Of a stretch of DNA of 44,804 nt, positions 6,199-41,160 are shown piece by piece. The first letter of the stretch is position 1, and each line of letters starts with the position of its first letter. This DNA is from Escherichia phage JLBYU60. A program made the translations under genes and the position numbers. The DNA lies in sequence record NC_073052.1; one strand, written 5' to 3'. The notes beneath the pieces are model-generated. The model saw only the letters and a program-made list of their open reading frames with translations. It ran no database searches and was not told the origin of the DNA.

Positions 6199-6226
6199 TT
6201 TGTTTTCCTTCATATCTCTGTTGGTG

Positions 6227-6263
6227 TGCAACCAATATAATGCAACCAACATACGCAATGCAA
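6227..6263 (-). promoter_or_regulatory. Putative sigma70-like promoter with two TTGGTTGCA elements
   Basis: On minus strand: -35 TTGCAT (6263-6258), 17-bp spacer, -10 TTATAT (6240-6235); TATATTGGTTGCACACCAACA element identical to that upstream of 40414. Confidence 0.45.
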
Positions 6264-11819: not shown

Positions 11820-11954
11820 TGAAGCGGGACAGGCGGGACGTCCCGTTTTGTCCCGCCTCTGTAAAACTGCATATCTACTCACTTCCACTGCATAAACTCA
11901 AAACGGGACAAGCGGGACGTCCCGTTTTGTCACGCCCTGTAAATATGCATACCT
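11819..11954. repeat. Tandem ~45-bp sub-repeats each containing the 12-bp palindrome CGGGACGTCCCG
   Basis: Two similar units (about 11824-11875 and 11896-11947); palindromes at 11834-11845 and 11913-11924; each unit also forms GGCGGGAC...GTCCCGCC inverted repeats. Confidence 0.7.
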
Positions 11955-12140
11955 ATGCAGATTTCGTGCATAAACCAAACGGGACAGAAAGCGGGACAAA
12001 CACGAGGCGGGACAAAACGGGACAGCACCCCGTCCCCGCCAGTGCTGCCGCGGTTTTCAGCCGATCGGGACAGCGGGACAGCACCCCAGTCTTTCAGACT
12101 AGACGGGGGTCAATGGCCCCCCTCGTCTGAGACTGAATAA
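11955..12140. repeat. Dispersed direct repeat, copy A (CGGGACA iterons plus long imperfect hairpin)
   Basis: About 186 bp, near-identical at both ends to 40016-40201 (shared ...tgcataaaccaaacgggacagaaagcgggacaaaca... and ...gggacagcgggacagcaccccagtctttcagactagacggggg...cccccctcgtctgagactgaataa); lies between chaperone and tape measure genes. Confidence 0.8.
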
Positions 12141-12203
12141 GGTTTGTTTTGAAATCGCTGATACAATATCCATCGGCAACTGCATAAAAAAGGGGACTGC
12201 ATA

Positions 12204-24078: not shown

Positions 24079-24651
24079 GTTTGAGTTTTCCCAGTCCATT
24101 TTGCGCCGCACCAGCGGGCTTTCGTAATATTCCTTGCCTTCCACTTCCACTAAGGGCCAGTCGTTCACTATAACGTATGGCTCCGCGATATCCTCGATCA
24201 CGCCGTGCGCACTATGTTGCCCGAAATCTACGCCCACCAGAATAACACCGGCAACTCGACGAGTGAGATACTCGCGAGCGCAACGCGCCTCTACCAGTCC
24301 GCGACGGATGCCGCTGGTGGCTTTGACCTCATATGTCCATACGGCATCAATCATGTGTTCTTTGTAGTCGGGGCCGGACTTAACCTTGCGCTTGCCGACC
24401 ATGATAATATCGCCGCGGTCGATAGTGTTAGCGCTAAACAGGCCAGTACGCATTAGCAAACCTTGTGGAATACAGCTACGCCCTCCCGCCTGCCCTTCGA
24501 GGTACATGCCTGCAAACATCTCGCCCAGTACACCGACAAGACGGCTTTGCTTGCACGCGTCAGACTTGTATCGCCACTGGTCAAACTCGATGCTTGCTAT
24601 CATTGCCGCCAGGTGGAATTGTTTACCCGATATTTCATATTCGCCGTACAT
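24076..24651 (-). CDS. Hypothetical protein, possible PD-(D/E)xK-type nuclease
   Basis: 191 aa; weak D...EVK signature (GDIIMVG...WTYEVKATSG); first gene of the minus-strand DNA metabolism block. Confidence 0.4.
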   Translation of the reverse strand: MYGEYEISGKQFHLAAMIASIEFDQWRYKSDACKQSRLVGVLGEMFAGMYLEGQAGGRSCIPQGLLMRTGLFSANTIDRGDIIMVGKRKVKSGPDYKEHMIDAVWTYEVKATSGIRRGLVEARCAREYLTRRVAGVILVGVDFGQHSAHGVIEDIAEPYVIVNDWPLVEVEGKEYYESPLVRRKMDWENSN

Positions 24652-24693
24652 TGTGTTGCCCTCATTGATGCGGGCCGAAGCCCGCGATTAGAA

Positions 24694-25215
24694 TTATTTA
24701 AGTGCGCCAGTCACCAGTGTTTTTTCCATGTTACGGAAGTCTTCCGGCGTCATGAGGATTTTAGATCCGTCTTCGCCGGTGAGTACGACCATAGGCTGTA
24801 CGTCCTGATCTGCGATGCCAAAATTAGCGGCTTTAACCATCTTGCCCGCCGATGCAGAAGGACGCCACGTTCCGCCGGTGGAGATGGGACAGCCTTTGAG
24901 GCTGTCGAATTGTGCTGCCGTTGTATCGATCTGAATCTCGTCGTGCACGGTCATGTAAGACTCACCCAGCAGTGCGGCATATGCTACCAGGTCCACGATG
25001 TTATCTTCCTGGTGCTTACGGTGCTGGCGCACCAGCTTCAGGCAGATCAGGAAGGTCCAGGCTTCTTGCTCGGTAAGGTCGCGCCCGGTAAGCGCGTTAA
25101 ACACGGCGGCGACCTGTTTAGCGCTGCGTTCTTCTTTCGCGTTGTCATAGCCGTTTTCTTTTCCGCGCTGCTCCATAGTGGTGGCGGCGTTTTTGCAGTA
25201 TTCGTATGCTTTCAT
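24694..25215 (-). CDS. Hypothetical protein
   Basis: 173 aa from ATG 25215 with RBS AGGAG (six-frame ORF extends to 25290 without RBS); no motif identified. Confidence 0.5.
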   Translation of the reverse strand: MKAYEYCKNAATTMEQRGKENGYDNAKEERSAKQVAAVFNALTGRDLTEQEAWTFLICLKLVRQHRKHQEDNIVDLVAYAALLGESYMTVHDEIQIDTTAAQFDSLKGCPISTGGTWRPSASAGKMVKAANFGIADQDVQPMVVLTGEDGSKILMTPEDFRNMEKTLVTGALK

Positions 25216-25277
25216 GGTTTGTCTCCTTTTAGGGGAGGCAGTATTGCCTCCCGATGTGGTTAATATAGTTGGTTGCA

Positions 25278-25748
25278 TTATTGGTTGCAAGTGAATTTTG
25301 CAAGATTCACAGAATAAATATGCGGGACCAGTTCTTCACACGCCCGTTTGATGGCGGCGATGTTCTTCGCGCAGTCGTCAATGATGACCAGTTCGTTAAC
25401 TTCTGCATAGCACACCAGGCCAAATACGGAACGGGCCTTGTACTCTGGCGGCGGCGTGTCATCAAGCATATGGCGTAAGAACAGACGACCTTTCGGGAAT
25501 CTATCCAATTGCTCTTTCGTTGACTCCCAGCAATCTGACTGGCGGTTTGACAGGTACGCAATGTCGAAGCCCTGTTTAGCGTACATGCGCAATAACGGCA
25601 GCATGTCATAATTAATGTCTTCGCGGACGTGGGCCTTATGCCACTTCGCCCAAAACGTTGATTTAGTCTTGATCCCCGGAACTAGGTCGTCGCGCACACT
25701 GCTTGACCCGTTGATAACGCCATCTAAATCGCAAATCAGTAGTTTCAT
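25278..25748 (-). CDS. HAD-superfamily phosphatase (nucleotidase / polynucleotide phosphatase-like)
   Basis: 156 aa; HAD motif I LICDLDGV and motif IV VIIDD. Confidence 0.65.
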   Translation of the reverse strand: MKLLICDLDGVINGSSSVRDDLVPGIKTKSTFWAKWHKAHVREDINYDMLPLLRMYAKQGFDIAYLSNRQSDCWESTKEQLDRFPKGRLFLRHMLDDTPPPEYKARSVFGLVCYAEVNELVIIDDCAKNIAAIKRACEELVPHIYSVNLAKFTCNQ

Positions 25749-26877: not shown

Positions 26878-26958
26878 CGTGTTGTCTCCAGGTATTAAAA
26901 AAGGCGTCCAAACCGGACACCCTTAAGATAATGCAACCAATATGATTATGCAACCAAT

Positions 26959-33333: not shown

Positions 33334-34113
33334 TTAACGGCGGCGACGTTTACGTGGCGCTTCGTCTTCGTCGTCGTCCTCATCTTCGTCATCGCGTGGC
33401 TTACGCCGTTTGCGAGGTTTTTCATCTTCCTCATCGTCGTCGTCATCGCGGCGCTTGGATTTCTTGGACTTGCGCGGCTTGTCATCTTCATCATCGTCAT
33501 CACGACGTTTTGACTTTTTGGACTTGCGCGGTGCTTCGTCTTCGTCGTTGTCCAGGTCTTCATCGGAGCAAGACGACCCGCCACCTCCGAAGGCTTCGCC
33601 GTCTTCACGGAATCGCAGACCCAGCAAGCCAGCCCCGAGACCCTTGCCGTTGGTATTGTTCCACGCCCAAATATCCAGGGACACATTGCAATAACAACCG
33701 GAGTAGATCTCCTGGCCTTCGATCTCGTCGCCTTCTACGGTCAGACCTTGTTCCGTCTGCTTCTCGCCAAGTGACGTTTGAATGATCGGCTGTTTGAACG
33801 ATTTGGCGTTGATGTACAACATGCCTTCGAATTCTTCGGTTACTTCGTCGCGCTCGTCACCGTCGCGAACTGCGCATTCCTTAGAATCCTGGGCGTAGTG
33901 GCGGTCCATCCACTTATCGGCATTCTTCTCGGATTTCAGCTTATCGGTGAGCACTGCGCGCGCTGCCGCTTCCACTTTGTCCACCTGCGGATCTTCTTTA
34001 TCCAGAAGAATAACGGCACGGTATGCCGGTTTTTGACCATCCTGTTTAGGGGTATCACGTTCCCAAATTTTAAGGAAGCATACGCGCACATTTTTCAGGT
34101 TGACTTTAGCCAT
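33334..34113 (-). CDS. Putative ssDNA-binding protein (DUF2815/gp2.5-like) with charged C-terminal repeats
   Basis: 259 aa from ATG 34113 (MAKVNLKNVRV) with RBS GAGGAA; adjacent to a DUF2800-like exonuclease; C-terminus has tandem K/R-rich and D/E-rich blocks (DEAPRKSKKSKRRDDDDEDDKPRKSKKSKRRDDDDDEED...). Confidence 0.45.
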   Translation of the reverse strand: MAKVNLKNVRVCFLKIWERDTPKQDGQKPAYRAVILLDKEDPQVDKVEAAARAVLTDKLKSEKNADKWMDRHYAQDSKECAVRDGDERDEVTEEFEGMLYINAKSFKQPIIQTSLGEKQTEQGLTVEGDEIEGQEIYSGCYCNVSLDIWAWNNTNGKGLGAGLLGLRFREDGEAFGGGGSSCSDEDLDNDEDEAPRKSKKSKRRDDDDEDDKPRKSKKSKRRDDDDDEEDEKPRKRRKPRDDEDEDDDEDEAPRKRRRR

Positions 34114-34203
34114 TTTCCAATTCCTCATTTTCACATGTATCGGGGTTATTGGAGGCCACCCCGTTCGGCTTGGTTGCCAATTTACTTGGTTGCGCTTAAG
34201 CGG

Positions 34204-36357: not shown

Positions 36358-36873
36358 TTAATCTTCCAGTTCGAAATAGGTTTCGACGATTTCTTTTAGC
36401 TCTGTGTGGAAGTCTTCGACGTCGTCATCTTCCAGCTTGGCGATTGATTTGATCTCGAACGATTCCAGCAGGTCGTCGAATTCGTCGTTCGCATCGTCGT
36501 CGTCACCACCGGCAATAATCGCGGCATACTGTTTGATCTCGTCGCGCATCTCTGCCAGCGGATCGGCATCTTTCTTGCCTTTGCCTTTTGCCGGTGCTTT
36601 TTTAGACTTAGCCGGTTTTTCATCTTCGGCATCGTCGTCGTCATCTTCTACGACTTCTTTTTTGGCCTTACCCTTCGCCGGTGCTTTTTTAGCTTTAGCC
36701 GGTTTTTCGTCTTCGGCGTCATCGTCGCCATCTTCGACAACTTCTTTTTTGGCCTTAGACGGCTTCTTGTCTTCCTGCTTACCAACGGCAGCGCCAACGG
36801 TTTCATAATGCTTTGCAATGGTCTCCAGTGCTACTACGCCGCGAGTGATCAGGTTTACGATTTGCTCAAACAT
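36358..36873 (-). CDS. Hypothetical protein with tandem lysine-rich/acidic repeats
   Basis: 171 aa from ATG 36873 (MFEQIVNL) with RBS GGAGATA; central duplicated ~31-aa unit (KPAKAKKAPAKGKAKKEVVEDDDDDAEDE) and acidic C-terminus; the six-frame ORF extension to 37053 lacks a credible start. Confidence 0.55.
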   Translation of the reverse strand: MFEQIVNLITRGVVALETIAKHYETVGAAVGKQEDKKPSKAKKEVVEDGDDDAEDEKPAKAKKAPAKGKAKKEVVEDDDDDAEDEKPAKSKKAPAKGKGKKDADPLAEMRDEIKQYAAIIAGGDDDDANDEFDDLLESFEIKSIAKLEDDDVEDFHTELKEIVETYFELED

Positions 36874-37110
36874 GGTATATCTCCGATTGGTTAAGTTTAG
36901 GTGTCGGCAGTTAACTTCGTCGGTGGCCTTAACATATTGCCAGGTTACGCGTTCTCCCGTTCGGGTAGTGGACCTGGTTATATAATCACGGTTGGGAATC
37001 CTGACACTTCGATCCGGCCCCTGCGGTGCCCCTCTCCAGTTTGCGTCCTGCATCCTGTCGACGGAGTGAATGATAGATTGGTTGCAGGATGGGTGTCAAC
37101 AACTAATTTC

Positions 37111-37214: not shown

Positions 37215-37243
37215 TTGACACCCTGCGGTTTTAGGTGTAGTTT
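37215..37243 (+). promoter_or_regulatory. Putative sigma70-like promoter for HTH regulator gene
   Basis: -35 TTGACA (37215-37220), 17-bp spacer, -10 TAGTTT (37238-37243); followed by inverted repeat TTGGTcattaaCCAAC overlapping the RBS region. Confidence 0.4.
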
Positions 37244-37274
37244 CATTGGTCATTAACCAACAGGAGACTGAATT

Positions 37275-37604
37275 ATGAATATCAAAGAAGCAATTGAAGT
37301 GTTATCTAATGCTATCCGCGGCGAGGCGGGTAAATCCTGGTATTACACAAATGCGGTGGATACTCTGTTATTTGAAGTGTCCAGGTTATCGCGTGCTGAG
37401 AAGGAGCTTACCGCCAAACTGGAATTACTGAATGGAACGGCAGCAAGCAAGCTGCAAAAACACAATGAAGAAATGGAAGAATACAAAAAGCAGGTTATCC
37501 GTTTGCGCGCCGAGGGCAAATCTTGGGCGATGATTGCCGAGTTGACCGGAATTAATCAGAGCACAGTGCGCTCCTGGGTACGCAATAATAAAACTTCTAA
37601 GTAA
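37275..37604 (+). CDS. HTH DNA-binding protein (putative early transcriptional regulator)
   Basis: 109 aa with RBS AGGAGA; C-terminal HTH-like segment SWAMIAELTGINQSTVRSWVRNN; first + strand gene after a 400-bp divergent intergenic region with sigma70-like promoter. Confidence 0.6.
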   Translation: MNIKEAIEVLSNAIRGEAGKSWYYTNAVDTLLFEVSRLSRAEKELTAKLELLNGTAASKLQKHNEEMEEYKKQVIRLRAEGKSWAMIAELTGINQSTVRSWVRNNKTSK

Positions 37605-37614
37605 GGCCACGGCA

Positions 37615-39879
37615 ATGAGCTTGATTAAATTCGCTGTAACAAAACCCGCTAAAAAAGGCGAAAAAGCCAGGGCGGAAAACTTCCAGATGACGACCGATGA
37701 GTTTTTCGAATTTATCAAAGATGCGAAAGAAATCTCCTCGGTGCATATCAACAAGACGGAAGATAAAGCCGAGTATGCGCGCCGCAAGCGTAAGGCCGAT
37801 GGCATCGTGGCGTATACCAGTGACGGATTGCGTCGTAAGACCAGTGCGGTGGACCGTTCGATCCTGTTCTTTGATATTGACCGCACCGACACCCGCACCC
37901 TGCGCCGCTGCCGCAAGGCGTTCATCGACGCGGGTCTGGAACACGTATTTCACACCACAACCGGCGACCGCCACCCGCTGAAAGGAGGCACGCGTTGCGC
38001 TCGTTTCCTGGTGCTCACCGATAAGCCTGTACCTGCTGAAGACCTGGGCCGCGTCCAGTATGCACTATTACACCAACTGGGCCTGTCAGATGTGGACTTC
38101 GATGATTGCACGAAAGACACAAACCGCCTTATGTACCTGCCTCACCAGCAATCGGTTGTTAAGTGTCACTACGGCAAACGTGCCCGCGTCCGTCGTCTGC
38201 TGCGCCTGGCGGATAAGCTGGGAGTGGAAAAAGAGGAAGTACGCCGCGAACTAACCCAGGGCGATGACGGCGTGGCGGACGGCATTCTGGATTGGTGCTT
38301 CCAGGCCGGATTCGAACCGCTGTCGTCCGGTCGTGGTTATGAAGTGCCATGCCCGAACGAACATCTGCATAGTGGCGAAGGGTCCACCGCTATCATGGTT
38401 AAGGATGGCGAGATCCGTTTCAAGTGTATGCACACCGGCAACGAGTGCTGTTCCGAACTGAACAGACACCAGCACCTGGCGCTACGTCTTATCGGGATCC
38501 CGGACCACCTGAACGTCGAACCGCACAACATGTCACGTAAGCAAATCGCCGCCATCCTTCCGGGACTGGACGACGAGGAGGTCGAATCGTGCTATGAACA
38601 TATCGTTGATGCGGTCGGTGACGGCGACGAGTACGGCGGATGTACGGACGCAGACCTGGACAACGAGCCGGTTGCACTGTTCAGTAAGCACGACCCGATC
38701 ATAGAAGGTCTGATTAACTTCAAATCGACCTGGTATATGGCTGGCGAGTCGAACATCGGTAAATCGTTCTACGTGCTGGGCCAAATGGGTGCGGTTGCCG
38801 CGGGGATTCCGTTCGGCGGCGCGAAGGTCGTCCAGTCCCATTGCTTCTATTTCGACGCGGAAGGTGGCGAAGCCTCTAACCAGCGCAAAGAAGCATTGCA
38901 GATTAAATATGAGCACGACCTGGACAAGCTGCACATTATCGATCTGCAATCACGCGGCTGGGATATCACCAGCAAATCCGGCTTGCGTGAAGTTATCAGC
39001 TTCATCAACCGCACCGCTAACGGCGAACCGGTTGGCCTGGTGGCGTTCGACTCACTCAACCAGACTGTTGCGTTGCGGTCCGCGGATGCTAAACCGTTCG
39101 ACGAGAACAACGCCAGCGATATGGGTGAAGTGGTCAAAGCGCTGAAGGCCATCGCGGAAAATACAGGTGGCAGTGCGGGCGTCATCCACCACCCGGCGAA
39201 GGGTGCAAACGGCAGCAGAACCCCCCGCGGGTCCGGCGCGCTGCATGGCGCTGTCGATTCTGCGTTCTTCCTGGAACAGCCGGACGACAACCAGCCAGGC
39301 CAATTGAACCTGTATCACGAAAAGGCACGTAACGGCATCAAGCAAGCGCCGCGTGGCTTCGTCCTGCTCAAGTGCAAGGTGAAGGTGGATCTCCGCAAGT
39401 CAGAAGCGTTCGAAGCCCACCAGTCCACCAGCACCGGGCCGGACTTCGGCGATGTGGTCGCCGGTTGGGACGTCAAGCCGATCGCATCAACGCCACGCGA
39501 CGAGACTCTTTACCTCGTACCGGTCGCCCTGGCACCGTTCGCCATTGAGCAGGCAAAGGCCGCTGGCAAGGCCGCAGTTAAGGAAGAGAACGCCGCAGGA
39601 CCGCGCAACGAAAAAGAGAAAGTGCTTTATGCAGCGCTGGAAAAACTGATGGAAGATAACCCGGACCATACCGGATTCAGCAAATCGGCAATTGTCCGCC
39701 AGGCTGGGCTTGCGAAAGGTGGCACATCGACGAAGGCAATCGACGATATGGTCGAGCGCGGCGTACTCGGTTTTTACACAGATCCGCACACCGGGGCCAT
39801 CTATGGGTCGTCGAATATCGTCATCAAAACGAATATACCCATCACGCTTTCGGCGACCGATGATGATTTAAAAGATTAA
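37615..39879 (+). CDS. Primase-helicase (replication initiation protein with RecA-like AAA_25-type ATPase domain)
   Basis: 754 aa; N-terminal region with LFFDIDRTD acidic motif and Cys/His zinc-binding segment CPNEHLHSGEG...FKCMHTGNEC; central Walker A GESNIGKS and Walker B-like LVAFDSLNQ. Confidence 0.7.
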   Translation: MSLIKFAVTKPAKKGEKARAENFQMTTDEFFEFIKDAKEISSVHINKTEDKAEYARRKRKADGIVAYTSDGLRRKTSAVDRSILFFDIDRTDTRTLRRCRKAFIDAGLEHVFHTTTGDRHPLKGGTRCARFLVLTDKPVPAEDLGRVQYALLHQLGLSDVDFDDCTKDTNRLMYLPHQQSVVKCHYGKRARVRRLLRLADKLGVEKEEVRRELTQGDDGVADGILDWCFQAGFEPLSSGRGYEVPCPNEHLHSGEGSTAIMVKDGEIRFKCMHTGNECCSELNRHQHLALRLIGIPDHLNVEPHNMSRKQIAAILPGLDDEEVESCYEHIVDAVGDGDEYGGCTDADLDNEPVALFSKHDPIIEGLINFKSTWYMAGESNIGKSFYVLGQMGAVAAGIPFGGAKVVQSHCFYFDAEGGEASNQRKEALQIKYEHDLDKLHIIDLQSRGWDITSKSGLREVISFINRTANGEPVGLVAFDSLNQTVALRSADAKPFDENNASDMGEVVKALKAIAENTGGSAGVIHHPAKGANGSRTPRGSGALHGAVDSAFFLEQPDDNQPGQLNLYHEKARNGIKQAPRGFVLLKCKVKVDLRKSEAFEAHQSTSTGPDFGDVVAGWDVKPIASTPRDETLYLVPVALAPFAIEQAKAAGKAAVKEENAAGPRNEKEKVLYAALEKLMEDNPDHTGFSKSAIVRQAGLAKGGTSTKAIDDMVERGVLGFYTDPHTGAIYGSSNIVIKTNIPITLSATDDDLKD

Positions 39880-39954
39880 ATTTTGCGCGCATTGGTTGCC
39901 GATATGGGAATTCCCATATCGCTAAAAGGTTAAATTTTGCGCGCATTGGTTGCC
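39876..39954. repeat. 25-bp perfect direct repeats flanking a 20-bp perfect palindrome
   Basis: TTAAATTTTGCGCGCATTGGTTGCC at 39876-39900 and 39930-39954; palindrome GATATGGGAATTCCCATATC at 39901-39920; first repeat overlaps the primase-helicase stop codon. Confidence 0.85.
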
Positions 39955-40015
39955 ATTTTGAGTGTTTTTATCAGGTCGTATTGGTTGCCGTGTAGTGTGA
40001 ATATAGTGAATAGTT

Positions 40016-40201
40016 ATGCAGTTTTACTGCATAAACCAAACGGGACAGAAAGCGGGACAAACAAGGGGCGGGACAAAGCGGGACAGCACCCCCGTCCCGC
40101 CCCGGATGGCGCGGCCTGGAGAGGAGCGGGACAGCGGGACAGCACCCCAGTCTTTCAGACTAGACGGGGGTCAGCGGCCCCCCTCGTCTGAGACTGAATA
40201 A
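40016..40201. repeat. Dispersed direct repeat, copy B (CGGGACA iterons plus long imperfect hairpin)
   Basis: Same orientation and length as copy A, 28,061 bp downstream; central ~45 bp diverged; located in the non-coding hub after the primase-helicase gene. Confidence 0.8.
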
Positions 40202-40350
40202 AATCCGAGGATTGCAAAATACACGGCAGCATGATGCGAAGGGCGGTCGTCGATGAACCAGGCAACCAATGCGGGTTGCATTATGCTGAGTGAAAAATGC
40301 AGTTTGCAGTCACAGCAGATAGCGATCAACTTTTTCATGCGCGTGATTAA

Positions 40351-40393
40351 TATTGGTTGCACCCTGCCTGGCGCCCTGCTATATTGGTTGCAC
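40351..40393 (+). promoter_or_regulatory. Putative sigma70-like promoter with duplicated TATTGGTTGCAC elements
   Basis: -35 TTGCAC (40357-40362), 17-bp spacer, -10 TATATT (40380-40385) preceded by TG-like extension; second TTGGTTGCACACCAA copy spans the predicted start site; gene starts at 40414. Confidence 0.5.
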
Positions 40394-40413
40394 ACCAACA
40401 AGAGGACTGAACG

Positions 40414-40719
40414 ATGAAAGTATTAATCTGGAATTACACAATGGCAGTGGCGAAGCTGTACGAAGCGAAACACACAAACGGCAACGCAGACGACGCGCGC
40501 CAGGTTGTCATCCTGGCCCAGCAGGGAATCATGAACGCGTTCGACGATATGTTTGCCAGCCTGGACGAACTGGAACCGCTGCGCGTGGCGATCTGCGAAT
40601 ATGCGATGGCATTTGCCCGTGAACGCCTGGCGTATCGCTTCGGGATCGGCGAGACGGCAGTGACAAACGTCGCCCGGATTAAAGCCCAGCGTGAGCTATT
40701 CGCCCAGCTTGCGAAATAA
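40414..40719 (+). CDS. Hypothetical protein
   Basis: 101-aa ORF with RBS AAGAGGA, directly downstream of a sigma70-like promoter (TTGCAC-17-TATATT). Confidence 0.5.
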   Translation: MKVLIWNYTMAVAKLYEAKHTNGNADDARQVVILAQQGIMNAFDDMFASLDELEPLRVAICEYAMAFARERLAYRFGIGETAVTNVARIKAQRELFAQLAK

Positions 40720-40728
40720 GAGGCCAAA

Positions 40729-41160
40729 ATGACCCGTAGACGCGCAAAACAGCTTTCGTGGCATATTCCCCTGCATTGCATACGAATATGGGCTAAGAAT
40801 GCGAATGTGGGGGATTCTGTATTCTGGTGTTATCGCGACGACGTAAAGCCACTGACGCAGACTCGCTACTTGCACCTGTTCGCAGCAAAGCACGGATTCC
40901 AGGTGCGGACTTCCTTGCAACCAATGGGGATCCGTATTACATTACGCCGAAAGCCCGCCATTGAGCGGGTAGGCAAACACTGGAGACTGAGCAAAATGAA
41001 CAAGCAACCTGAACGCTGGCGGAGTAAGGCCACGCGACTGACTTACTTCGTGACAGAAGAAGCAAACGGCAACGTGACTATTTCACACCCTAAGTGTGGT
41101 ACTCGCCGCACTATCTCGCGCCTCACATTAGTTCGTAACTACAGGAGATTGACAGAATGA
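40729..41160 (+). CDS. Hypothetical basic protein
   Basis: 143-aa ORF, arginine-rich; RBS-like GAGG upstream; no motifs. Confidence 0.5.
   Translation: MTRRRAKQLSWHIPLHCIRIWAKNANVGDSVFWCYRDDVKPLTQTRYLHLFAAKHGFQVRTSLQPMGIRITLRRKPAIERVGKHWRLSKMNKQPERWRSKATRLTYFVTEEANGNVTISHPKCGTRRTISRLTLVRNYRRLTE

What the first reader, a model, noticed from the sequence alone, without database searches (positions are those of the whole stretch)
39876..40413. About 540-bp non-coding hub after primase-helicase: direct repeats, palindrome, iteron element and promoters (candidate origin / regulatory centre)
In order: a 25-bp perfect direct repeat (39876-39900, 39930-39954) flanking a 20-bp perfect palindrome GATATGGGAATTCCCATATC; a further ATTGGTTGCC copy; repeat copy B with CGGGACA iterons and hairpin; then GCAACCAA/TTGGTTGCAC elements and a sigma70-like promoter in front of the 40414 gene. 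Dense repeats plus iterons beside the primase-helicase gene is the classic signature of a phage replication origin, but a pure transcriptional control region or packaging site cannot be excluded.
Basis: partly seen in the sequence, partly recalled or inferred. Interest (0 to 1): 0.7.

Follow-up and report, generated by a model that had tools for sequence, protein, structure and literature searches.

The report
Origin-like iteron hub with operators
The non-coding stretch after the helicase-primase gene of this Dhillonvirus coliphage is a real, conserved control hub: a repeat-and-hairpin module that is most likely the replication origin, flanked by binding sites of a genome-wide phage regulator and an ordinary promoter; the function is inferred from comparison, not shown.

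Summary
The window is a Dhillonvirus (HK578-like E. coli siphophage). It is a composite of four different things. (1) The 32-nt direct repeat plus 22-bp palindrome is an indel found in only 11 of 27 relatives, so it is dispensable. (2) TTGGTTGC is not an origin iteron. It occurs 19 times genome-wide and is promoter-associated, and it tracks an invariant HTH in the gp45-like protein encoded upstream of the helicase-primase. (3) The core is a module made of an AT-rich stretch, CGGGACA iterons and a roughly 50-nt hairpin. It is duplicated upstream of the tape-measure gene. The same architecture sits directly behind the helicase-primase gene in relatives down to 45% protein identity, but the iteron sequence is replaced lineage by lineage (GTGTGGCA, GTGTGCCA, GGTGCCA, CGGACAA, GGGGAGA). 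(4) A conserved extended -10 sigma-70 promoter drives the downstream genes. The best reading is an iteron-type replication origin embedded in transcription control (about 0.45). A purely transcriptional or RNA role for the module is the main rival (about 0.3). GC skew does not single out the hub, and no protein could be matched to the iterons. In kind, this is a new member of a known class.

The parts
37275..37604 (+). gp45-like 109-aa protein with a C-terminal HTH; first gene of the operon with the helicase-primase and candidate binder of TTGGTTGC
   Evidence: Pfam HTH_23 / Sigma70_r4_2. The HTH half is nearly invariant in every lineage that keeps TTGGTTGC, although the iterons differ between those lineages. 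The HK578 gp45-gp46 operon is described in bioRxiv 10.64898/2026.07.10.737580.
37615..39879 (+). helicase-primase: AEP-type primase N-domain, Cys/His cluster, RepA-like RecA-fold helicase, C-terminal winged helix, acidic tail DDDLKD
   Evidence: AAA_25; phrog_3228 replicative helicase-primase; RSF1010 RepA 1g8y TM 0.67; PF08800 BT4734-like_N in 4 of 11 relatives; winged-helix fold of residues 655-754; conserved acidic tail.
39869..39954 (+). 32-nt direct repeat (39869-39900, 39923-39954) flanking the 22-bp palindrome 39900-39921; an indel polymorphism
   Evidence: Absent from ZCEC10, 011D5, YD-2008.s, jat and EP23. The palindrome is present in 11 of 27 genomes.
39892..39988 (+). three TTGGTTGC sites (39892-39899, 39946-39953, 39981-39988) between the stop codon and the AT-rich stretch; only the third is invariant
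   Evidence: Relatives L016, L018, L019, L020 and L021 keep 2-3 sites here in either orientation.
39955..40040 (.). AT-rich stretch (28-45% GC against 54.5% for the genome) holding the box GTGAATAGTTATGC (40006-40019) and the inverted repeat TTATGCAGT/ACTGCATAA (40014-40034)
   Evidence: The box recurs in Pantoea phage AH01 and Salmonella phage vB_STM-ZS.
40041..40141 (+). iteron array: CGGGACA at 40041, 40053, 40069, 40079, 40127 and 40135, plus an inverted copy GTCCCGCCCC at 40094-40103 that forms hairpin 40065-40103
   Evidence: The cores are invariant in 11 + 15 genomes while the spacers vary. Other lineages carry other 7-8-mers at the same positions.
40148..40196 (+). long imperfect hairpin (about 19 bp with two bulges; loop variable, stems invariant)
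   Evidence: z = -3.5; equivalents in L016, L018, L019 and AH01 give z = -2.7 to -3.8. Stems invariant and loop variable. No T-run follows, so it is not an intrinsic terminator.
40222..40231 (+). CACGGCAGCA box, one copy of the genome-wide ACGGCARC 8-mer, 27 nt 3' of the hairpin
   Evidence: Invariant in alignment A1. The 7-nt core CGGCARC follows the hairpin in the same orientation in L016, L018, L019, AH01 and ZS, and lies in the Otaku hub, where no hairpin was folded.
40261..40273 (-). inverted TTGGTTGC site (GGCAACCAATGCG), a perfect reverse complement of the CGCATTGGTTGCC copies at 39888 and 39942
   Evidence: I3, I4; invariant.
40350..40413 (+). extended -10 sigma-70-type promoter: -35 TTGCAC 40357-40362, TG 40377-40378, -10 TATATT 40380-40385. 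Two ATATTGGTTGCAC operators overlap the -35 and the -10/+1. The leader carries TTGGT-N5-ACCAAC and AGAGGA; the ATG is at 40414.
   Evidence: (D6); invariant in 11 relatives. The same 21-nt TATATTGGTTGCACACCAACA occurs at 6219-6239 on the minus strand (I11).
11822..12167 (+). paralogous copy A between the tail chaperone genes and the tape-measure gene: two 79-bp units with CGGGAC hairpins (11822-11979), the 195-nt homologue of hub B (11946-12140), then an invariant extended -10 TGATACAAT (12159-12167)

Best explanation
The region is a conserved, composite intergenic hub. Its core runs from about 39955 to 40235. It consists of an AT-rich stretch, six CGGGACA iterons plus one inverted copy, a roughly 50-nt hairpin and a CACGGCAGCA box. 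This core is most likely the cis-acting origin where the adjacent helicase-primase is loaded and the first primer is made. The enzyme combines an AEP-type primase, a RepA-like hexameric helicase, a winged helix and an acidic tail. Inferred mechanism: a lineage-specific DNA-binding surface recognises the iterons. The helicase-primase's own variable winged helix is the prime suspect, but this is unproven. The neighbouring AT-rich DNA melts, the hairpin extrudes, and the helicase is loaded onto single-stranded DNA. Copy A upstream of the tape-measure gene would then be a second or auxiliary site, like P4 crr or SPP1 oriR. A transcription-control layer surrounds the core. TTGGTTGC operators, probably bound by the gp45-like HTH protein, sit on both sides of it. 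They also overlap the extended -10 promoter of the downstream operon, as they do at most other promoters of the genome. The 54-bp repeat and palindrome are an accessory indel. Shown here: the anatomy, the conservation pattern, the lineage-specific iteron replacement and the domain make-up. Inferred: every binding event and origin activity itself.
For: 1. The module stays directly 3' of the helicase-primase gene wherever that gene is at least 44% identical, even though the downstream genes differ completely. This holds in the Dhillonviruses, in five metagenomic lineages at 67-70% identity, and in vB_STM-ZS, Otaku and AH01.
2. The iteron sequence switches between lineages at fixed positions while the flanks stay the same: CGGGACA; GTGTGGCA (L017, L018); GTGTGCCA (L019); GGTGCCA (L020, L021); CGGACAA (AH01); GGGGAGA (ZS); TGTGCGGAA (Otaku). 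This is the pattern expected of initiator-iteron specificity groups.
3. The iteron cores and hairpin stems are invariant in 26 Dhillonvirus copies, while spacers and the loop vary.
4. An AT-rich flank (27.5% GC minimum) lies next to a GC-rich iteron island.
5. The enzyme has the domain set of self-loading initiator helicase-primases.
6. The experimentally mapped pRN1 replicon has the same gene order: small DNA-binding protein, primase-helicase with winged helix, then an essential stem-loop downstream (PMC4234260).
7. HK578 mutants escaping the replication-sensing OLD system map to gp46 and to the gp45 promoter.
8. No coding potential and no Rfam family.
Against: The cumulative GC-skew minimum is at about 37.0 kb, in the divergent promoter region, not at 39.9-40.4 kb; skew here follows transcription polarity, so this is weak evidence. 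No protein segment co-varies with iteron type: the winged helix of L016 (CGGGACA) resembles that of L020 (GGTGCCA), and a test for specificity-determining positions gave no excess. Both copies lie in the direction of transcription and just upstream of promoters, which fits a transcriptional module equally well. The spacer between the two iteron sets is GC-rich in Dhillonviruses. There are no DnaA boxes in the hub. Jerseyvirus and Kagunavirus relatives have no such gap. Hairpin covariation is too weak to prove a selected structure. No experimental origin data exist for this genus.
Confidence: 0.45

Rival explanations
1. The iteron and hairpin module is purely a transcription or RNA-level boundary element. 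The iterons would be an array of sites for a lineage-specific transcription factor (activator, antiterminator or roadblock). The hairpin would act in the mRNA as an RNase III-type processing or stabilising element, or as a weak terminator. Together they would set expression of the operon that starts just downstream, in both copies.
For: Both copies have the orientation of transcription and are followed by a conserved extended -10 promoter with a weak or absent -35, which is typical of factor-dependent promoters. Copy A sits between the tail chaperone and tape-measure genes, where an expression step-down or internal promoter makes sense. The hairpin, a 19-bp stem with asymmetric bulges, resembles phage RNase III sites (the resemblance is from my own knowledge). 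One public annotation calls the 40065-40103 hairpin a terminator. The rest of the hub is clearly transcriptional.
Against: No T-run follows either hairpin. In AH01 and ZS the downstream promoters are near-consensus and should not need an activator, yet the module is present. The module keeps a fixed position relative to the helicase-primase stop codon, while its distance to the downstream promoter varies from about 25 to 200 nt and the downstream genes are unrelated. No matching variable regulator was found. The consensus structure carries little covariation: the covariation term is unfavourable at +0.84 kcal/mol, and only 3 of 19 pairs have a compensatory change.
Confidence: 0.3
2. The 195-nt module encodes or acts as a structured cis-RNA, for example a put-like antitermination element with two copies, or a small RNA.
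For: Two same-strand copies lie inside long rightward transcription units. The hairpins are stable and conserved.
Against: No Rfam match. No promoter-like site lies upstream of the module. Conservation is concentrated in repeated 7-mers present in both orientations, which is what protein-binding DNA looks like, rather than in paired columns. The repeated word is exchanged wholesale between lineages.
Confidence: 0.1
3. The hub is the packaging (pac) recognition region bound by the small terminase.
For: Repeat arrays are typical of TerS binding sites. Two public records (Zar3M, SP1) end inside the hub.
Against: Dhillonvirus BF9 packages by a headful mechanism with a permuted genome (PMC10059673), so record ends are arbitrary. 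The hub is about 4.4 kb from terS (55-627), whereas pac sites usually lie in or beside terS (my own knowledge). Linkage across genera is to the helicase-primase gene, not to terS.
Confidence: 0.05
4. The repeats are selfish or slippage-generated junk (a MITE-like element that duplicated) with no function.
For: There is a 195-nt dispersed duplicate. The 54-bp repeat and palindrome behave as a presence/absence polymorphism.
Against: The iteron cores and stems are invariant in both copies across genomes that are only about 82% identical overall. The position is fixed across genera. Nothing similar exists in plasmids or in 5,426 E. coli genomes. This reading is plausible only for the 54-bp indel.
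Confidence: 0.05

Closest known systems
pRN1 replicon of Sulfolobus (orf56-orf904 operon plus downstream stem-loop origin; PMC4234260)
   Same: A small DNA-binding protein gene, then a multidomain AEP-primase/helicase/winged-helix protein, then an essential stem-loop in the non-coding DNA just 3' of that gene. The authors note the same layout in some phages.
   Different: The pRN1 helicase is SF3, whereas this one is RecA-fold and RepA-like. pRN1 has no iterons. Here the hairpin is about 50 nt and is preceded by 6-7 iterons.
RSF1010 / IncQ oriV (RepC iterons, RepA helicase, RepB' AEP-like primase acting on the ssiA/ssiB hairpins)
   Same: The closest solved structure to the helicase core is RSF1010 RepA. 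The origin is built from iterons plus hairpins that serve as priming signals (described).
   Different: IncQ uses three separate proteins with a dedicated iteron binder. Its iterons are about 20 bp (my own knowledge), not 7-8 bp. It has two ssi hairpins on opposite strands.
Satellite phage P4 alpha protein with ori and crr
   Same: One protein combines primase, helicase and a C-terminal winged-helix origin binder. Octamer iterons lie in two separated clusters, ori and crr (my own knowledge; alpha is summarised). This parallels copies B and A.
   Different: The P4 primase is Toprim-type and its helicase is SF3. The P4 origin-binding domain was not among the fold matches of the C-terminal domain.
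SaPI pri-rep-ori modules of Staphylococcus aureus (my own knowledge, not checked here)
   Same: The origin lies immediately 3' of the helicase gene. It has two iteron sets around a spacer, and the iteron sequence differs between islands to match the Rep specificity.
   Different: The SaPI spacer is AT-rich, whereas here it is GC-rich in Dhillonviruses (AT-rich in L018-L021). Matching protein variation could not be demonstrated here.
Bacillus phage SPP1 oriL/oriR (my own knowledge)
   Same: Two copies of an origin-like repeat module lie far apart in a pac-type siphophage genome, one of them among late genes.
   Different: SPP1 has a dedicated origin-binding protein (G38P) and a helicase loader. 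oriL lies inside gene 38.
Operator-controlled sigma-70 early promoters of lytic and temperate phages
   Same: TTGGTTGC sites overlap the -35, spacer or +1 of promoter-like sites in either orientation, as repressor operators do.
   Different: Sites also occur without any recognisable promoter (39892-39988, 40262). Binding by gp45 is untested.

Membership tests
Iteron-type replication origin next to its initiator gene | Cluster of at least 3 short direct repeats, far above chance | tested here: met
   Six CGGGACA copies plus one inverted within 100 bp. GCGGGACA occurs 13 times against 1.97 expected, clustered in the two module copies.
Iteron-type replication origin next to its initiator gene | Adjacent AT-rich, easily melted segment | tested here: met
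   39860-40040 is 28-45% GC against 54.5% for the genome.
Iteron-type replication origin next to its initiator gene | Iteron sequence is lineage-specific and co-varies with the DNA-binding part of the initiator | tested here: inconclusive
   At least seven iteron types occur at fixed positions. No residue set in the helicase-primase or gp45 tracks them.
Iteron-type replication origin next to its initiator gene | Nucleotide-skew inflection at the site | tested here: not met
   The cumulative GC-skew minimum is at about 37.0 kb, 2.8 kb away, and coincides with the switch of transcription polarity.
Iteron-type replication origin next to its initiator gene | Supports initiator-dependent replication; initiation maps there | not testable with these tools
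   No experimental data for the genus were found.
pRN1-type origin | Operon of a small DNA-binding protein plus a primase-helicase-winged-helix protein, with a long stem-loop within a few hundred bp downstream | tested here: met
   gp45-like HTH followed by the 754-aa protein. Hairpin at 40148-40196, 270 nt after the stop codon.
pRN1-type origin | SF3 helicase domain | tested here: not met
   AAA_25 / RecA fold; the best compact match is RSF1010 RepA.
pRN1-type origin | AEP (prim-pol) primase domain | tested here: inconclusive
   PF08800 BT4734-like_N matches 4 of 11 aligned relatives (best E 9e-7). The window protein itself has no hit and is linked only through the alignment, with conserved D87xD89 and H120.
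Intrinsic (rho-independent) terminator | GC-rich hairpin immediately followed by a T-run | tested here: not met
   No plus-strand terminator-like site in 39500-40800. The hairpins are followed by GGATGG and AATAAAATCC.
Sigma-70 promoter (extended -10 class) | TGn + TATAAT-like -10, with a -35-like hexamer at 17 bp | tested here: met
   TTGCAC-17-TGcTATATT, invariant in 11 relatives. Activity not testable here.
Known RNA families (Rfam 15) | Covariance-model match at the gathering score | tested here: not met
   0 matches in the whole window.
DnaA-dependent origin | DnaA boxes TTWTNCACA in the origin | tested here: not met
   There is one match in the window, at 39772 inside the gene, against 2.7 expected.
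P4 alpha-type origin-binding domain | C-terminal winged helix homologous to the P4 origin-binding domain | tested here: inconclusive
   The C-terminal model (pLDDT 77) is a winged helix. The best PDB matches are H1, MarR, Rio2 and ORC2 at E >= 0.09; P4 alpha is not listed.

The most novel reading that the evidence does not exclude
The module is a two-site (B plus A) origin system whose iteron specificity switches rapidly between co-circulating lytic coliphages. In addition, the genome-wide 8-mer ACGGCARC, one copy of which follows the origin hairpin in most lineages (a 7-nt CGGCARC core in L016 and in copy A), would be the sequence-specific start signal of the AEP-type helicase-primase. The 8-mer occurs 54 times, about one per 830 bp, is roughly 10-fold over-represented and is conserved at the DNA level. 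Under this reading it marks both the first primer at the origin and the Okazaki priming sites.
Probability: 0.12. Interest if true: 0.75.

Novelty: new member of a known kind. Interest (0 to 1): 0.5.

Why it matters
Dhillonviruses are among the commonest E. coli phages in therapy and defence-system collections (BASEL, HK578), yet neither their origin nor their transcription programme has been described. This work yields three directly testable items: a defined candidate origin, a candidate operator-regulator pair (TTGGTTGC and gp45), and a natural series of iteron specificity variants. These bear on several questions: how replication-sensing defences such as OLD are triggered, how such phages could be engineered, and how replicon specificity evolves in lytic phages.

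Tried and rejected
- Rfam scan of the whole window: no match.
- Built-in promoter and terminator scans of both module copies: no terminator with a T-run, and no promoter inside the module.
- GC skew: the minimum is at 37.0 kb and follows gene polarity, so it is uninformative for the hub.
- DnaA boxes: none in the hub.
- Coding potential of the ORFs crossing the hub (84, 61, 76 and 54 aa): rejected because close relatives carry 1-nt indels inside them.
- Matching a protein to the iterons: sliding identity of the helicase-primase and gp45, tblastn of 22 neighbouring genes, and a test for specificity-determining positions all gave no signal.
- Fold search of the full-length model: dominated by RecA-fold proteins.
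- Fold search of the C-terminal domain: a generic winged helix with no P4 alpha match.
- Profile searches of PDB with the N-terminal domain: nothing.
- Hairpin covariation: too few informative sequences.
- Concerted evolution of copies A and B: only 81.0% within genomes against 79.1% between genomes, so they are old paralogues.
- BLAST of the hub against plasmids and E. coli genomes: no match.
- Record ends inside the hub as possible physical termini: rejected because the genus packages by a headful mechanism.
- Sigma-54 reading of TTGGTTGC pairs: rejected by eye, because the GC of the -12 element is missing at the required spacing.
Full report
**Identity and context.** The window is a complete or nearly complete Dhillonvirus genome (HK578-like E. 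coli siphophage). The hub and its flanks match 157 phage records. The best are Gluttony, Lust and Pride at 94%. The gene order is collinear with phage Ioannina:
- terminase, head and tail genes on the plus strand up to about 25.3 kb;
- a minus-strand replication and recombination block from 25.3 to 37.05 kb;
- a divergent promoter region;
- then, on the plus strand, a 109-aa HTH protein (37275-37604), the 754-aa helicase-primase (37615-39879), the hub, small genes, the lysis genes and an exonuclease.

In HK578 the two genes before the hub form the gp45-gp46 operon. Mutants that escape the replication-sensing OLD defence map to gp46 and to the gp45 promoter (bioRxiv 10.64898/2026.07.10.737580). 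I found no paper describing an origin or a transcription map for this genus.

**The observation.**
- The direct repeat is 32 nt with one mismatch, and its first copy includes the stop codon.
- The palindrome is 22 bp.
- TTGGTTGC occurs six times in the hub.
- GCGGGACA occurs five times; counting the 7-mer CGGGACA gives six, plus one inverted copy.
- Both motifs are far above chance: 19 against 1.9 expected and 13 against 2.0 expected.
- The stretch 40007-40201 is 87% identical to 11946-12140.

The region is non-coding, because close relatives differ by 1-nt indels inside all the longer ORFs that cross it.

**Dissecting the hub by comparison.** An alignment of 11 Dhillonviruses and 15 further genomes from IMG/VR separates four components.

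(i) The first repeat copy and the palindrome form a 54-bp indel. The palindrome is present in 11 of 27 genomes. EP23 lacks even the single TTTGCGCGCATTGGTTGC copy. This component cannot be essential.

(ii) TTGGTTGC is a genome-wide motif. Seventeen of its 19 copies are intergenic, and they often come in pairs 12-31 bp apart. Nine of the 19 overlap a promoter-like site, where 7.4% would be expected by chance. The motif overlaps the -35, the spacer or the +1, in either orientation. Examples are the near-consensus leftward promoter TTGACA-18-TATCAT at 37099-37070 and the promoter of the hub itself. That is how an operator behaves.

The C-terminal HTH of the gp45-like protein is almost invariant in every lineage that keeps TTGGTTGC, including lineages whose iterons differ. 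Salmonella phage vB_STM-ZS has a different small DNA-binding protein at this position, and there the corresponding motif is ATGTTGGCTGC. I therefore infer, without proof, that gp45 binds TTGGTTGC.

(iii) The core module consists of an AT-rich stretch, the iterons, a long hairpin and a CACGGCAGCA box. The iteron cores and hairpin stems are invariant in all 26 Dhillonvirus copies examined, while the spacers and the loop vary.

(iv) The promoter is TTGCAC-17-TGcTATATT, with two ATATTGGTTGCAC operators and a conserved leader (TTGGT-N5-ACCAAC-AGAGGA). The same leader recurs at the promoters at 37216 and about 6260.

**The key comparative result.** Homologues of the helicase-primase allowed me to fetch the equivalent region from lineages at 67-70% protein identity (L016-L021). 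I also fetched it from three phages at about 45% identity: vB_STM-ZS, Otaku and AH01. All keep the gene order small DNA-binding protein, helicase-primase, then a 280-585 bp non-coding gap. Except in Otaku, whose gap differs more, the gap has the same layout as the hub where enough sequence is held (the contigs of L017, L020 and L021 stop inside the array): regulator sites, a GAATAGnTATGC-like AT-rich box, an iteron array with one or two inverted copies, a long hairpin and an ACGGCARC box. In the complete gaps a promoter follows.

The repeated word itself is replaced between lineages:

| Lineage | Iteron |
|---|---|
| window, Ioannina, L016 | CGGGACA |
| L017, L018 | GTGTGGCA |
| L019 | GTGTGCCA |
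| L020, L021 | GGTGCCA |
| AH01 | CGGACAA |
| ZS | GGGGAGA |
| Otaku | TGTGCGGAA |

Within the 67-70% group, TTGGTTGC and most of the hairpin stay unchanged while the iterons differ. Wholesale replacement of an iteron at fixed positions next to a replication gene is the signature of initiator-iteron specificity groups. The module is tied to the 3' end of the helicase-primase gene and not to the downstream genes, which are unrelated between lineages. More distant relatives (Jerseyvirus SETP13, Kagunavirus Bas70) lack the gap.

**The enzyme.**
- Pfam sees only AAA_25.
- The AlphaFold model (pLDDT 74) has a RecA-fold core whose best compact match is the RSF1010 RepA helicase (TM 0.67).
- The N-terminal domain matches PF08800 (BT4734-like, an AEP primase clade) in 4 of 11 aligned relatives. 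It carries an invariant DxD and a nearly invariant His.
- Residues 655-754 model as a winged helix (pLDDT 77) with only generic matches: H1, MarR, Rio2 and ORC2.
- The protein ends in a conserved acidic tail, D(D/E)DLx(D/N).

This domain set resembles self-loading initiators such as P4 alpha and pRN1 ORF904. For pRN1, an essential stem-loop just downstream of the gene has been shown to act as the putative origin, and the authors pointed out the same layout in phages (PMC4234260).

**What argues against an origin.**
- GC skew turns at 37.0 kb and about 24.5 kb, exactly where gene polarity changes, and shows nothing at the hub.
- No segment of the helicase-primase or of gp45 co-varies with iteron type, and no neighbouring protein does either. 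The binder therefore remains unknown.
- Copy A lies between the tail chaperone and tape-measure genes and is followed by an invariant extended -10 promoter, TGATACAAT. Both copies thus precede promoters and face the direction of transcription, which a transcriptional or RNA module would also explain.
- Copies A and B are old paralogues with little concerted evolution, and both are under purifying selection.
- Neither hairpin has a T-run, there is no Rfam match, and hairpin covariation is weak.

**Verdict.** I rate the iteron-hairpin core as the replication origin, or a helicase-primase loading and priming site, at about 0.45. A purely transcriptional or RNA boundary module comes at about 0.3, with small shares for a cis-RNA, a pac site or junk. 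The TTGGTTGC elements and the promoter are transcription control, and the repeat-plus-palindrome is a dispensable indel. In kind, this is a new member of the iteron-origin class, adjacent to a multifunctional helicase-primase. Its closest analogues are pRN1, RSF1010, P4, the SaPIs and SPP1. It is not a new category.

**Side finding.** ACGGCARC is the most over-represented 8-mer of the genome: 54 copies against 5.0 expected.
- It occurs in several reading frames and in intergenic DNA.
- Its density is about one per 830 bp in every block.
- It is also the top 8-mer in the distant phage AH01.
- Sixty-six per cent of sites are fully conserved against Ioannina, compared with 26% for background 8-mers.
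- One copy (the 7-nt core CGGCARC in L016 and copy A) lies roughly 20-40 nt 3' of the long hairpin wherever a hairpin was identified.

Its function is unexplained. A primase start signal is one speculative possibility.

Noticed in passing
whole window, e.g. 1505, 9554, 21405, 40223; also L003 (Ioannina) and L015 (AH01): ACGGCARC occurs 54 times against 5.0 expected (largest shuffle 10). It is found in several reading frames and in intergenic DNA, at about one per 830 bp in all genome blocks. In this window 41 of the 54 copies are on the plus strand; the bias is weaker in relatives. 66% of sites are identical in Ioannina against 26% for background 8-mers, and it is also the top 8-mer of the distant Pantoea phage AH01. 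A copy (a 7-nt CGGCARC core in some lineages) follows the hub hairpin wherever one was found. Function unknown; possibilities include a primase signal, a modification target or a Chi-like site.
   Followed up: partly
window 39577-39879 (helicase-primase residues 655-754): A profile of the C-terminal winged-helix domain matches every repeat of the TALE-like protein BurrH (PDB 4cj9) through the motif (R/E)GFSxAEIVKIAGxGG. The summed E-value is 7e-35, but each repeat scores only 5-12 bits. This could be convergence or a distant link between this domain and TALE-like repeats.
   Followed up: partly
window 11822-12167: About 385 bp of non-coding DNA lies between the tail chaperone genes and the tape-measure gene. 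It holds two 79-bp tandem units, each with a nested CGGGAC/GTCCCG hairpin and CTGCATA(A) motifs, followed by the homologue of hub B. Next come an invariant extended -10 (TGATACAAT, 12159-12167) and two ACTGCATAA copies, the second of which overlaps the tape-measure start codon. In the Ioannina lineage a perfect TTGGTTGC sits just upstream of this -10.
   Followed up: partly
window 37246-37260, 40384-40398, 6221-6235: Three promoters share a leader with the palindrome TTGGT-N5-ACCAA followed by CA(A)GAGGA and the start codon. This could be a 5' RNA hairpin or a palindromic operator.
   Followed up: no
window 25262-25290: A pair of TTGGTTGC sites lies at the convergent junction of the plus-strand tail-fibre genes and the minus-strand block. 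It coincides with a leftward promoter-like site (TTGCAA-17-TATATT) that would give RNA antisense to the end of the gene at 24463-25263.
   Followed up: no
window 26900-26957: A TTGGTTGC pair and a weak promoter-like site (TTGCAT-17-TATCTT) sit between a stop codon and a canonical minus-strand intrinsic terminator (GGGTGTCCGGTTTGGACGCC followed by a T-run), so transcripts started there would meet the terminator within about 30 nt.
   Followed up: no
window 33350-33564 and 36464-36737: Runs of TCGTCGTC-type repeats (54-nt and 87-nt tandem units) lie inside two minus-strand genes (the ssDNA-binding-like gene 33334-34134 and the 231-aa gene 36358-37053). They encode acidic and lysine-rich low-complexity tracts.
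   Followed up: no
window 39900-39921: The dispensable 22-bp palindrome carries an EcoRI site. With its 32-nt flanking duplication it looks like an insertion with a long target duplication, or a slippage product. It is present in 11 of 27 genomes.
   Followed up: partly
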